Source: a virus
Strand: one strand, 5' to 3'
Virus genome (UHGV): UHGV-0869939
Length of the DNA: 25,864 nt
Positions 23,774-24,172 of the stretch are shown here, piece after piece. Numbering within the stretch: the first letter of the stretch is position 1; the number at the start of each line of letters is the position of its first letter. A model generated the notes under the pieces. The model saw only the letters and a list, made by a program, of their open reading frames with translations, was not told the origin of the DNA and ran no database searches. The translations under genes were made by a program, and so were the position numbers.

Positions 23774-24044
23774 GATGGCGTCTCCACTTAGCGAATTACA
23801 TCACCACCGCTGAGACCAATCAGATGGTGGTGAACTGAACGGAGTTGGTCTTACCGGCCTAAGTGGTACCGGCGTCCTTTCGGACCCCCATTCAGCCCAC
23901 CATAATTCTGGCATGACTGTGCTATACGCATAAAAAAACCACGTCTGGCGTGGTATGCGCCACTTAGTAATCCGGGAGACCAATCCCGGCACTGGATTTT
24001 GCCAGTGCCCGATTACTATGGCACAAGAGGAGTGCAATGTAAAT

Positions 24045-24059
24045 TTACCGCAAAGGTAA
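24045..24059. promoter_or_regulatory. TTACC-N5-GGTAA palindromic site (copy 4 of 6)
   Basis: TTACCGCAAAGGTAA in the divergent intergenic region; 93 bp centre-to-centre from copy 5. Confidence 0.6.
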
Positions 24060-24137
24060 TGATAAACGCGAAGAAATATTAAAATCAACCGTATTTGGTT
24101 GATTGCGTTTAACGCTTGATCACCTGAAAGCAAGATA

Positions 24138-24152
24138 TTACCTTTAAGGTAA
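24138..24152. promoter_or_regulatory. TTACC-N5-GGTAA palindromic site (copy 5 of 6)
   Basis: TTACCTTTAAGGTAA, 20 bp upstream of the ATG at 24173, preceded by a GATATT -10-like hexamer. Confidence 0.6.
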
Positions 24153-24172
24153 TGTTATTGTGAGGAAAAGCA

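What the first reader, a model, noticed from the sequence alone, without database searches (positions are those of the whole stretch)
23774..24172. Long structured divergent control region upstream of the antirepressor
The 400-bp region between the antirepressor (minus) and the zinc-ribbon gene (plus) holds two TTACC-N5-GGTAA sites spaced about 9 helical turns apart. Its antirepressor leader contains CCACTTAG at 23784-23791 and 23960-23967 with its complement CTAAGTGG at 23859-23866, paired CACCACC/GGTGGTG segments, and a GTCC-GAAA-GGAC tetraloop hairpin on the transcribed strand. The mutually exclusive pairings suggest a leader switch or antisense RNA target, similar in spirit to sar RNA control of P22 ant. 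The 110-codon ORF across it (23801..24133) is Trp-rich and probably non-coding.
Basis: seen in the sequence. Interest (0 to 1): 0.5.

Follow-up and report, generated by a model that had tools for sequence, protein, structure and literature searches.

The report
Two small RNAs gating phage antirepressor
The 400-bp "leader" upstream of the antirepressor gene is a known phage immunity cassette: a repressor-controlled promoter, a short terminated RNA (IsrK) and a tRNA-like antisense RNA (C4) that masks the gene's ribosome-binding site, so the feature is real but of an already described kind.

Summary
The region is not an anonymous structured leader. Rfam places two known RNA genes on the ant strand: IsrK (24008..23932, 67.7 bits) and C4 antisense RNA (23907..23823, 61.2 bits), the immI-type control known from phage P1/P7 and Gifsy-1. 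The C4 loop CCACUUAG and its AGACCAA element are complementary to CUAAGUGG at the ant Shine-Dalgarno and to UUGGUCU in a hairpin loop just upstream. The same two target words recur inside IsrK. In 99 distinct related loci these three sets co-vary (97/99 cognate against 1/4684 swapped), with six alleles of one word and about 35 of the other. The TTACC-N5-GGTAA palindromes are a phage-wide operator. In relative phiV10 they flank the repressor gene, and one sits at the IsrK promoter. The 110-codon ORF is not a gene. Most likely mechanism: the prophage repressor limits transcription, C4 blocks ant translation, and IsrK, which carries a copy of the target, counteracts C4. Gifsy-1's published "orf45" is a C4 homolog, and IsrK corresponds to the P1 a1/b1 leader, an equivalence I did not find stated in the papers I read. 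Verdict: already known kind, low to moderate interest.

The parts
24138..24152 (.). Operator copy TTACCTTTAAGGTAA, 21 bp upstream of the ATG of the plus-strand zinc-ribbon gene (24173)
   Evidence: It belongs to a family of 6 exact sites in the window. In phiV10 the same palindrome flanks the repressor gene p40.
24045..24059 (.). Operator copy TTACCGCAAAGGTAA, abutting the -35 of the IsrK promoter and centred about -44 from the IsrK 5' end
   Evidence: It is conserved at the same place in phiv142-3 (L003 3346) and phiV10 (L126 20497).
24015..24043 (-). Promoter-like site PisrK: TTTACA (24043..24038), 17 nt, TG-n-CATAGT (24020..24015). The predicted start at about 24008 is the first base of the IsrK model.
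   Evidence: One search gives a consensus match only (9 of 12, extended -10). The position fits the Rfam isrK 5' end.
23932..24008 (-). IsrK RNA, which corresponds to the c4-a1b1 leader of P1. It has hairpin 1, hairpin 2 with UUGGUCU (a1, 23983..23977) in its loop, a single-stranded CUAAGUGG (b1, 23967..23960), and an intrinsic terminator 23954..23938 plus U7.
   Evidence: Rfam RF01394 scores 67.7 bits against a gathering score of 50. RF03163 c4-a1b1 scores 39.9 bits on 24021..23969, below its gathering score of 46.7. The fold has z = -2.9. Hairpin 1 is 100% paired, with 6 of 7 pairs compensatory across 45 loci. The terminator is, and the T-run is invariant in 45 of 45 sequences.
23823..23907 (-). 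C4 antisense RNA. It has a 17-bp closing stem (23902..23828), hairpin 1 GUCC-GAAA-GGAC (23885..23874), and hairpin 2 (23873..23853) with CCACUUAG (b', 23866..23859) in its loop. A single-stranded AGACCAA (a', 23851..23845) follows, and the 3' end reads ...CACCACCA.
   Evidence: Rfam RF01695 scores 61.2 bits against a gathering score of 45. The MFE fold equals the Rfam structure, with z = -5.5. The closing stem is 98.3% paired, and 7 of 17 pairs change on both sides.
23802..23832 (-). a2 hairpin: CACCACC-AU-CUGA-UUGGUC-UCAG-C-GGUGGUG, presenting target word a2 (UUGGUCU, 23819..23813) in its loop. Its 5' arm is the 3' strand of the C4 closing stem, so the two folds exclude each other.
   Evidence: fold. 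In one search the outer stem is 94% paired and the inner stem 88% paired, with all 4 inner pairs compensatory. The a':a2 pairing is 100% across 45 loci, with 4 of 7 pairs changed on both sides.
23782..23791 (-). b2 target plus Shine-Dalgarno: CUAAGUGGAG, 8 nt upstream of the ant AUG and complementary to the C4 loop CCACUUAG
   Evidence: A helix of at least 8 bp between the leader and the locus's own C4 loop occurs in 97% of 97 loci, against 29% with another locus's C4.
23117..23773 (-). ant, a 218-aa antirepressor with an N-terminal AntA domain
   Evidence: Pfam PF08346, 91.8 bits. PGAP names the 97% identical E. coli MB31 copy 'antA/AntB antirepressor family protein'.
23030..23044 (.). Third operator copy TTACCTTTAAGGTAA, downstream of ant and upstream of the 108-aa ORF / YafO-like toxin pair
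   Evidence: It is also present in phiv142-3.
23801..24133 (-). 110-codon ORF: not a gene. It runs through the promoter, IsrK, the terminator, C4 and the a2 hairpin.
   Evidence: It has no Pfam match. In 97 related loci the stop-free frame, where there is one (56 of 97), falls in different frames. The nucleotide conservation is accounted for by base pairing.

Best explanation
The region is an immI-type RNA immunity cassette that keeps the antirepressor silent in the lysogen. The terms a and b are the two target words, following the P1 annotation; a' and b' are their complements in C4.

Shown here:
- Two RNA genes of known families lie in tandem on the ant strand.
- C4 carries two exposed words: b' (CCACUUAG, in the hairpin-2 loop) and a' (AGACCAA, single-stranded).
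- These words are complementary to b2 (CUAAGUGG, fused to the ant Shine-Dalgarno GGAG) and to a2 (UUGGUCU, in a hairpin loop 22 nt upstream).
- The same two target words, a1 and b1, lie in IsrK, which ends in an intrinsic terminator.
- All three sets co-vary across related phages.

Inferred from P1/P7 and Gifsy-1:
- Transcription starts at PisrK. Its -35 is abutted by an operator for the prophage's main repressor, so the lysogen makes little transcript.
- Most transcripts stop at the IsrK terminator. Read-through produces the C4 precursor and ant mRNA.
- C4 is cut out; its tRNA-like acceptor stem and CCA-like 3' end are the RNase P substrate in P1.
- C4 then binds a2 and b2 and blocks ribosome binding to ant. 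Unlike in P1, there is no intervening icd gene.
- IsrK carries a copy of the target and pairs with a' and b' of C4. It does so in cis in the read-through RNA and in trans as the short RNA. When IsrK is abundant it relieves C4 repression, as measured for Gifsy-1.
- Because the a and b words are polymorphic and reassort, each phage's C4 silences only its own ant. This would be heteroimmunity at the RNA level.
For: Rfam finds isrK at 67.7 bits and C4 at 61.2 bits, both above their gathering scores, in tandem on the ant strand. The predicted folds equal the family structures, with C4 z = -5.5 and the whole leader z = -4.9. On a 45-sequence alignment that includes P1 and Gifsy-1, the stems show compensatory changes: IsrK hairpin 1 is 100% paired and the C4 closing stem 98.3%. 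The intermolecular helices a1:a' and a':a2 are each 100% paired over 315 cells, with 4 of 7 pairs changed on both sides.

In 99 distinct loci, 97 carry the reverse complement of the IsrK-loop 7-mer in C4 and the same 7-mer again in the leader. With swapped loci the figures are 1 of 4684 and 0 of 4684. For the second word, 63 of 97 loci have an exact three-way match of at least 7 nt, against 62 of 8908 swapped, with about 35 different words. With G-U pairs allowed, 95% and 97% of cognate pairs have a helix of at least 8 bp, against 14.5% and 29% for non-cognate pairs.

The P1 record annotates the same layout: Oc4 operator, promoters, a1, b1, c4, a2, b2. The P1 stretch matches C4, c4-a1b1 and, weakly, isrK. 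Gifsy-1's 'orf45' is a C4 match at 69 bits. The genetically proven IsrK-orf45 pairs G28-C162 and G31-C159, and the more than 100-fold activation of anrP translation by IsrK in trans (PMC4825925), map exactly onto a1:a' (my mapping).

For the operator, 8 sites are found against 0.54 expected. In phiV10, copies flank the repressor gene p40 and one sits upstream of IsrK.
Against: Nothing here shows transcripts, processing or repression in this phage; all functional steps are transferred from P1/P7 and Gifsy-1. The promoter is a 9-of-12 consensus match, and such matches are as frequent in shuffles. The c4-a1b1 model scores below its gathering threshold here (39.9 against 46.7). The protein that binds TTACC-N5-GGTAA is inferred only from where the sites lie in phiV10, and the repressor gene is outside the window. 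Some sites precede late genes, so an activator or a Cro-like protein is not excluded.

The decoy role of IsrK is not fully consistent with the Gifsy-1 data. The cis mutation isrK-G28A raises basal anrP translation from 4 to 93 units (Table 1D), which a pure decoy model does not predict. Gifsy-1 also needs translation of an upstream ORF (orf45). The window has no equivalent: the AUGGUGGGCUGA reading frame stops after three codons.
Confidence: 0.85

Rival explanations
1. IsrK (the a1/b1 element) is not an anti-C4 decoy. It acts as a cis-acting partner that holds a' and b' of C4 in the read-through precursor. This would guide folding or processing of C4, or favour the a2 hairpin and an inactive mRNA fold (structure A of the Gifsy-1 paper). 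The terminated short RNA would then be a by-product.
For: The MFE fold of the whole 238-nt leader pairs a1 and b1 with a' and b' in cis and forms the a2 hairpin. In Gifsy-1, the cis mutations G28A and G31A raise basal translation and shift the RNA conformer. The P1 record calls a1 and b1 only 'putative' targets.
Against: The terminator between a1/b1 and C4 is conserved, with an invariant T-run in 45 of 45 sequences including P1. A free a1/b1 RNA is therefore made in all of these loci. In Gifsy-1, IsrK supplied in trans activates translation 100-170-fold, and IsrK-G28A in trans does not. The two roles do not exclude each other.
Confidence: 0.3
2. The region is a purely cis-acting leader switch, riboswitch- or attenuator-like. 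Alternative intramolecular pairings expose or hide the ant ribosome-binding site, and no separate RNA acts in trans.
For: Mutually exclusive pairings exist: CACCACC is shared by the C4 closing stem and the a2 hairpin. The whole leader folds well, with z = -4.9.
Against: The elements match two families of free-standing RNAs. P1 c4 is annotated as a discrete 77-nt RNA that complements in trans (Citron and Schuster 1990 and 1992, from my own knowledge). A roughly 80-nt processed species, STnc1160, is seen in Gifsy-1. No ligand-binding family matches the region.
Confidence: 0.08
3. The control is P22 sar-like: a cis-encoded antisense RNA read from the opposite (plus) strand across the ant ribosome-binding site.
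For: The only support is an analogy of function: an antirepressor under RNA control.
Against: There is no promoter-like site on the plus strand within 23774-24172, and no plus-strand terminator in the region. No sar or other plus-strand family matches at E<=1, apart from two sub-threshold chance hits. The complementary words lie on the same strand, which requires trans or cis pairing of co-directional RNAs.
Confidence: 0.02
4. The long ORF (23801..24133), or a shorter upstream ORF like Gifsy-1 orf45, is translated and ant is expressed by translational coupling.
For: Gifsy-1 orf45 is translated, and its translation is needed for anrP expression. The window has a 37-codon AUG-initiated frame, 23914..23801.
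Against: The orf45-equivalent AUG (AUGGUGGGC) is followed by UGA after three codons in the window. Across 97 loci this frame is long in 46, short in 31 and intermediate in 18. The 37-codon frame ends 28 nt before the ant AUG, so the two are not overlapping. The ORF has no Pfam match, and the Gifsy-1 authors themselves report conserved nucleotides but variable amino acids.
Confidence: 0.05

Closest known systems
immI operon of phages P1 and P7 (Oc4/Op51 operator, P51a/b, a1 b1, c4 RNA, a2 b2, icd, ant1/2)
   Same: The order of elements is the same: repressor operator, promoter, a1/b1 in a two-hairpin leader, a terminator-like hairpin, C4 RNA, a2 in a hairpin that shares its 5' arm with the C4 closing stem, then b2 at a Shine-Dalgarno. 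P1 aligns column by column with the window from the IsrK start to the start codon. The C4 family score is comparable, 68.8 bits for P1 and 61.2 for the window.
   Different: There is no icd gene. b2 overlaps the Shine-Dalgarno of ant itself, so repression is expected to be direct rather than through icd translation and polarity. The Ant protein is unrelated in type: a single 218-aa AntA-domain protein, not Ant1/Ant2. The operator is a 15-bp palindrome, whereas the C1 operator is annotated as a 17-bp monovalent site. The phage is an epsilon15/phiV10-like podovirus (Uetakevirus) prophage, not a plasmid prophage. The leader scores higher as isrK than as c4-a1b1; in P1 it is the reverse.
Gifsy-1 isrK-orf45-anrP locus of Salmonella (Hershko-Shalev et al. 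2016, PMC4825925)
   Same: Both have IsrK above the Rfam threshold, followed about 25 nt later by a C4 match and then an antirepressor-like gene. The a1:a' numbering is identical: positions 26-32 pair with 158-164. The whole-leader MFE reproduces their 'structure A'.
   Different: The Gifsy-1 paper treats the C4 stretch as a small ORF (orf45) whose translation is coupled to anrP, and it does not mention c4 or P1. In the window that frame is closed after 3 codons and does not reach the ant AUG. The specificity words also differ: Gifsy-1 has UUGGCGU and UCACCG, the window UUGGUCU and CUAAGUGG. The window has no isrJ downstream.
APSE phages of Hamiltonella defensa (Rouil et al. 2020; record LR794147)
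   Same: A C4 sRNA and an isrK sRNA are annotated in tandem upstream of a BRO-N antirepressor-like gene, with a' and b' marked and matched to the upstream region of that gene.
   Different: That paper treats IsrK as an unrelated Hfq-binding or virulence sRNA and does not note that it carries the C4 target words. The downstream gene family differs (Bro-N there, AntA here).
P22 immI sar RNA
   Same: Both give post-transcriptional repression of an antirepressor by a small RNA that pairs at the ribosome-binding site.
   Different: sar is read from the opposite strand and is fully complementary to its target. Here the regulator is co-directional, folded, and uses two short loop contacts. No sar match or plus-strand promoter is present.

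Membership tests
C4 antisense RNA (Rfam RF01695) | Covariance-model score at or above the gathering score | tested here: met
   The score is 61.2 bits against a gathering score of 45, with E = 8.5e-10 for the whole window and the full model (1-87) matched.
C4 antisense RNA (Rfam RF01695) | Long closing stem enclosing two hairpins, supported by covariation | tested here: met
   The MFE equals the family structure, with z = -5.5. The closing stem is 98.3% paired over 45 sequences, and 7 of 17 pairs change on both sides. Hairpins 1 and 2 are poorly aligned by MAFFT and give lower counts.
C4 antisense RNA (Rfam RF01695) | Two exposed words (a', b') complementary to two sites (a2, b2) at the ribosome-binding site of the gene downstream on the same strand | tested here: met
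   AGACCAA pairs with UUGGUCU, and CCACUUAG pairs with CUAAGUGG fused to GGAG, 8 nt before the AUG. These pairings co-vary in 97 of 99 loci.
C4 antisense RNA (Rfam RF01695) | Processed from the ant co-transcript to about 77 nt by RNase P, and represses in trans | not testable with these tools
   Only sequence hints are available: an acceptor-like stem and a nearly invariant ...CACCACC(A) 3' end. The processing itself is known for P1 from the literature (my own knowledge; not read here).
IsrK (Rfam RF01394) | Covariance-model score at or above the gathering score, with two 5' hairpins and an intrinsic terminator | tested here: met
   The score is 67.7 bits against a gathering score of 50, with the full model matched. 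The terminator 23954..23938 plus U7 is. Hairpin 1 is 100% paired, with 6 of 7 pairs compensatory.
IsrK (Rfam RF01394) | Base-pairs with the sequence between itself and the antirepressor gene ('orf45') | tested here: met
   Positions 26-32 pair with 158-164, the same positions as the proven Gifsy-1 pairs G28-C162 and G31-C159.
IsrK (Rfam RF01394) | Hfq binding, and activation of antirepressor translation in trans | not testable with these tools
   This was shown only for Gifsy-1 (PMC4825925).
c4-a1b1 (Rfam RF03163) | Covariance-model score at or above the gathering score | tested here: not met
   The score is 39.9 bits against a gathering score of 46.7 at 24021..23969, with E = 1.1e-08. P1 scores 51.0 and Gifsy-1 48.1, and both pass. 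The stretch is clearly homologous but is better described by the isrK model.
P1/P7 immI operon | c4 acts on the ribosome-binding site of icd, a small ORF that overlaps and is required for ant expression | tested here: not met
   b2 overlaps the Shine-Dalgarno of ant itself, and no ORF overlaps the ant start. Among 49 related loci some downstream genes are small (about 60-70 aa), but the window's is the 218-aa AntA protein.
P1/P7 immI operon | An operator of the main prophage repressor at the c4 promoter | tested here: inconclusive
   A TTACC-N5-GGTAA copy abuts the -35. In phiV10 the same palindrome flanks repressor gene p40 on both sides. No binding data exist, and the repressor gene is outside the window.
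P22 sar-type cis-antisense control | A promoter and small RNA on the strand opposite to ant, overlapping its ribosome-binding site | tested here: not met
   No plus-strand promoter-like or terminator-like site lies in 23774-24172, and no family match is found there.

The most novel reading that the evidence does not exclude
IsrK and the P1 'a1/b1' leader are the same RNA, and it is a dedicated, co-evolving target mimic (anti-antisense RNA) of C4. The cassette would then be a three-RNA circuit: decoy, antisense and target. Its two short specificity words exist in many alleles, at least 6 for a and about 35 for b, and these reassort between phages to create private immunity specificities. It follows that Gifsy-1's 'orf45' is the C4 gene, and that IsrK's reported activation of anrP is relief of C4 repression. 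I did not find this equivalence stated in the IsrK paper, the APSE paper, the 2025 reviews or Weinberg 2010. Rfam keeps isrK outside the C4 clan.
Probability: 0.55. Interest if true: 0.45.

Novelty: already known. Interest (0 to 1): 0.27.

Why it matters
For annotating this window, the result turns 400 bp of 'intergenic leader' and a spurious 110-codon ORF into two RNA genes, three operators and a defined translational target. It also identifies ant as a tightly silenced induction or anti-immunity gene of an epsilon15/phiV10-like E. coli prophage. RefSeq annotates none of these RNA features in a 97% identical prophage.

More generally, the comparison links two bodies of work that the papers I read treat separately: P1/P7 c4 immunity and Salmonella IsrK. 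It shows that the cassette is portable. It precedes Bro-N, Rha, ORF6N and AntA genes, with highly polymorphic and reassorting specificity words, which bears on predicting which prophages can cross-induce or cross-silence each other. None of this is a new kind of mechanism.

Tried and rejected
- **The 110-codon ORF as a gene.** It has no Pfam hit and no conserved frame, so I rejected it.
- **An orf45-like coupled upstream ORF.** The frame is closed after 3 codons in the window, so this does not apply here.
- **sar-like opposite-strand RNA.** Nothing is found on the plus strand.
- **Sub-threshold Rfam hits.** lysM-TM7 (19.3 bits against a gathering score of 61.5) and CRISPR-DR57 (17.5 against 39) on 24043-24179 are driven by the two palindromes. 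I treated them as chance.
- **GAGACCAATC repeat on its own.** It is not significant within the window: 2 copies against 1.6 expected with one mismatch allowed. Its meaning comes only from the cross-locus covariation.
- **Alignment-based counting of the b:b' pairs.** It gave only about 60% paired, because MAFFT does not keep the variable loops in register. I replaced it with alignment-free word and helix tests.
- **Primary P1 papers.** PMC523184 and PMC312442 are not held, so statements on RNase P processing and icd polarity rest on my own knowledge.
- **CUAAGUGG at 22214 and 24729 on the plus strand as extra C4 targets.** I could not distinguish this from chance.
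Full report
**1. The observation**

The interval 23774-24172 separates ant (23773..23117, minus strand; AntA domain, 91.8 bits) from a plus-strand zinc-ribbon ORF that starts at 24173.
- TTACC-N5-GGTAA at 24045 and 24138.
- CCACTTAG at 23784 and 23960, with its complement at 23859.
- CACCACC and GGTGGTG at 23802 and 23826.
- GUCC-GAAA-GGAC on the minus strand at 23885..23874.
- The 110-codon ORF.

The two principal words are far more frequent than chance allows. 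The palindrome has 8 matches (one mismatch allowed) against 0.54 expected, and the 8-mer has 5 against 0.53; no shuffle out of 100 reaches either count.

**2. What is there**

A gathering-threshold Rfam scan of the whole window gives three hits. Two of them fill the 'leader' on the ant strand: isrK (RF01394, 24008..23932, 67.7 bits, gathering score 50) and C4 antisense RNA (RF01695, 23907..23823, 61.2 bits, gathering score 45). One search repeats the scan at E-value thresholds and adds a sub-threshold c4-a1b1 match (RF03163, 39.9 bits) on the 5' part of IsrK.

A promoter-like site, TTTACA-17-TGnCATAGT, places a start at about 24008, the first base of the IsrK model. An intrinsic terminator (23954..23938 plus seven U) ends IsrK. 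Each RNA folds alone into the family structure, with C4 z = -5.5 and IsrK z = -2.9.

So most of the 'long leader' is two RNA genes. They are followed by a hairpin (23832..23802) and the ant ribosome-binding site.

**3. The pairing logic**

I follow the naming used in the P1 record. On the minus strand:
- C4 exposes b' (CCACUUAG, 23866..23859) in the loop of its second hairpin.
- C4 also exposes a' (AGACCAA, 23851..23845) in the single strand that follows.
- Downstream, a2 (UUGGUCU, 23819..23813) sits in the 6-nt loop of a hairpin.
- b2 (CUAAGUGG, 23791..23784) runs into the GGAG Shine-Dalgarno, 8 nt before the ant AUG.
- Upstream, inside IsrK, the same two words recur: a1 (23983..23977) in the loop of hairpin 2, and b1 (23967..23960) in the single strand before the terminator.

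One pair of pairings is literally exclusive: CACCACC is both the 3' strand of the C4 closing stem and the 5' arm of the a2 hairpin.

**4. Evidence from relatives**

The window is an epsilon15/phiV10-like (Uetakevirus) prophage of E. coli. It is 99% identical to phiv142-3 over 23700-24065 and about 80% identical to phiV10. Similar prophage segments occur in 868 of 5426 complete E. coli genomes, and 22 of those cover at least 80% of the 2.5-kb query 22900-25400.

Together with annotated records they gave 99 distinct IsrK-to-gene stretches.
- In 97 of 99, the reverse complement of the IsrK-loop 7-mer occurs downstream in C4, and the 7-mer itself occurs again after it. With loci swapped this happens in 1 of 4684 and 0 of 4684 cases.
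- Six alleles of this word were seen: UUGG followed by CGU, UCU, AAC, CAU, UCG or AAG.
- For the second word, 63 of 97 loci have an exact three-way match of at least 7 nt, against 62 of 8908 swapped, with about 35 different words.
- With G-U pairs allowed, 95% of IsrK linkers and 97% of ant leaders form a helix of at least 8 bp with their own C4 loop. With another locus's C4 the figures are 14.5% and 29%.
- The two words reassort. For example, CUAAAAGG is found with each of the CGU, AAC and UCU alleles.

On a 45-sequence alignment that includes P1 and Gifsy-1:
- IsrK hairpin 1 is 100% paired, with 6 of 7 pairs compensatory.
- The C4 closing stem is 98.3% paired, with 7 of 17 pairs compensatory.
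- The a2 hairpin is 94% paired in its outer stem and 88% in its inner stem.
- The a1:a' and a':a2 helices are each 100% paired, with 4 of 7 pairs changed on both sides.
- The scripts behind searches used the a' and b' labels the other way round.

The gene served by the cassette varies. Among 49 loci it is Bro-N in 18, Rha in 9, ORF6N in 3 and AntA in 1, and the rest include small proteins.

**5. Comparison with the known systems**

*P1.* The P1 record annotates exactly this order: C1 operator Oc4, promoters, a1, b1, c4 (77 nt), a2, b2, then icd-ant. The P1 stretch matches C4 (68.8 bits), c4-a1b1 (51.0 bits) and, on the same bases including a terminator-like hairpin, isrK (35.1 bits, below threshold).

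*Gifsy-1.* The sequence between isrK and anrP, published as 'orf45', is a C4 match at 69.0 bits, and the IsrK region also passes the c4-a1b1 threshold. The two in-frame AUGs of orf45 are the AUGGUGGGGCGUAUGGGG at the 5' end of C4.

With the IsrK start taken as +1, the base pairs proven by compensatory mutation in that paper (G28-C162 and G31-C159; PMC4825925, Table 1D) are pairs of the a1:a' helix. The numbering is the same in the window. The paper's 'structure A' is reproduced by the MFE fold of the window's whole leader, in which a1 and b1 pair with a' and b' in cis.

That paper reports conserved nucleotides but variable amino acids for orf45, and a processed species of about 80 nt (STnc1160). 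It does not mention c4 or P1.

*Other sources.* The APSE phage record and paper annotate C4 and isrK side by side but treat IsrK as unrelated. Weinberg 2010 lists c4 and c4-a1b1 without mentioning isrK. The 2025 reviews describe IsrK and, in one of them, c4 without connecting the two.

**6. The palindromes**

TTACC-N5-GGTAA occurs exactly six times in the window. Five copies are clearly intergenic, and the sixth (2491) lies at the 5' edge of the terminase-small ORF as mechanically called.

In the complete phiV10 genome the same palindrome lies on both sides of the putative repressor gene p40: at 31953 and 32015 downstream, and at 32727 and 32775 in the divergent region towards the next gene. 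It also lies before other early operons, before the terminase, portal-region and tail-fibre genes, and at 20497, just upstream of IsrK.

I infer that it is the operator of the main prophage repressor, dispersed over the genome as the C1 operators of P1 are (22 operators; PMC8546580). The ant cassette would then be under double control, transcriptional and translational. The identity of the binding protein is an inference from position only.

The 24138 copy belongs to the neighbouring zinc-ribbon gene. That gene is a cassette absent from phiv142-3 and phiV10 and present in phage TL-2011b.

**7. Mechanism, and how sure each step is**

*Shown by sequence and comparison:* two RNA genes, their structures, two target words at the ant ribosome-binding site, a copy of both targets in IsrK, three-way covariation, and a conserved terminator between IsrK and C4.

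*Transferred from P1/P7* (Citron and Schuster 1990 and 1992; Biere et al. 1992; Hartmann et al. 1995; from my own knowledge, not read here) *and from Gifsy-1*: C4 is cut out of the read-through transcript, binds a2 and b2, and blocks translation. IsrK in trans relieves this.

*Different from P1:* there is no icd, so ant's own Shine-Dalgarno is the target.

*Open:* whether IsrK acts mainly as a trans decoy or as a cis partner. The Gifsy-1 cis mutants that raise basal expression argue that cis pairing also matters.

**8. Verdict**

The feature is an instance of an already described RNA immunity cassette that Rfam recognises above threshold, although RefSeq does not annotate it in a 97% identical prophage.

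The only element that may be new is the explicit equivalence IsrK = a1/b1 leader and orf45 = C4, together with the extent of allelic covariation. That refines known biology; it is not a new mechanism.

Noticed in passing
window 24173-24901 (+): The zinc-ribbon ORF is frameshifted near its 3' end, at about 24823. It matches the intact 242-aa E. coli MB31 homolog at 95% identity up to residue 217 and then diverges. The missing C-terminus (…DGLMAWCKTCWDEH…) is readable in another frame up to about 24900.
   Followed up: yes
window 24922-25302 (-): This ORF is epsilon15 gp19-like and is probably 85 aa, read from an internal ATG as in RefSeq. It shares 44% identity over 78 aa (E = 1e-19) with the C-terminal half of Ant (residues 134-210). 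A free-standing paralog of the Ant C-domain therefore sits about 1.1 kb away, with its own TTACC-N5-GGTAA site at 25256.
   Followed up: partly
window 22162-22987 (-), operator at 23030-23044: A YafO-family toxin ORF of 170 aa (Pfam weak; named by PGAP in E. coli MB31) overlaps a 108-aa upstream ORF with no family. This looks like a toxin-antitoxin-like moron directly downstream of ant, preceded by an operator copy.
   Followed up: partly
window 2491, 2509, 5579, 23030, 24045, 24138, 25256, 25488; L126 (phiV10) 87-35132: TTACC-N5-GGTAA is a dispersed, genome-wide site in phiV10-like phages. In phiV10 it flanks the repressor gene and precedes early, late and tail-fibre genes. The binding protein is unknown, and I found no paper describing it.
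   Followed up: partly
window 24059-24104 (-): A hairpin with a T-run (24104..24083) and a second promoter-like site (TTGATT-18-TATCAT, 24088..24059) lie between the two operators. The -10 of this second site abuts the 24045-24059 operator. The layout is reminiscent of the tandem P51a/P51b promoters of P1, but it rests on consensus matches only.
   Followed up: no
window 22214-22221 and 24729-24736 (+ strand reads CTAAGTGG): There are two further copies of the C4 target word b. One lies inside the zinc-ribbon mRNA, in the context GAUUGACUAAGUGG. They could be extra C4 targets or chance.
   Followed up: no
window 5180-5256 (-): A tRNA-Arg (anticodon UCU) is encoded between the terminase and portal regions of the prophage.
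   Followed up: yes
L124 48217-48311 (P1), L125 34329..34240 (Gifsy-1), window 24021..23932: Rfam families isrK (RF01394, no clan) and c4-a1b1 (RF03163, clan CL00128) hit the same bases in all three phages. They appear to model one homologous RNA, with and without its terminator.
   Followed up: yes
L125 33406..33480 (-) (Gifsy-1): isrJ (100 bits) lies just downstream of anrP in Gifsy-1. The window has no counterpart downstream of ant.
   Followed up: no
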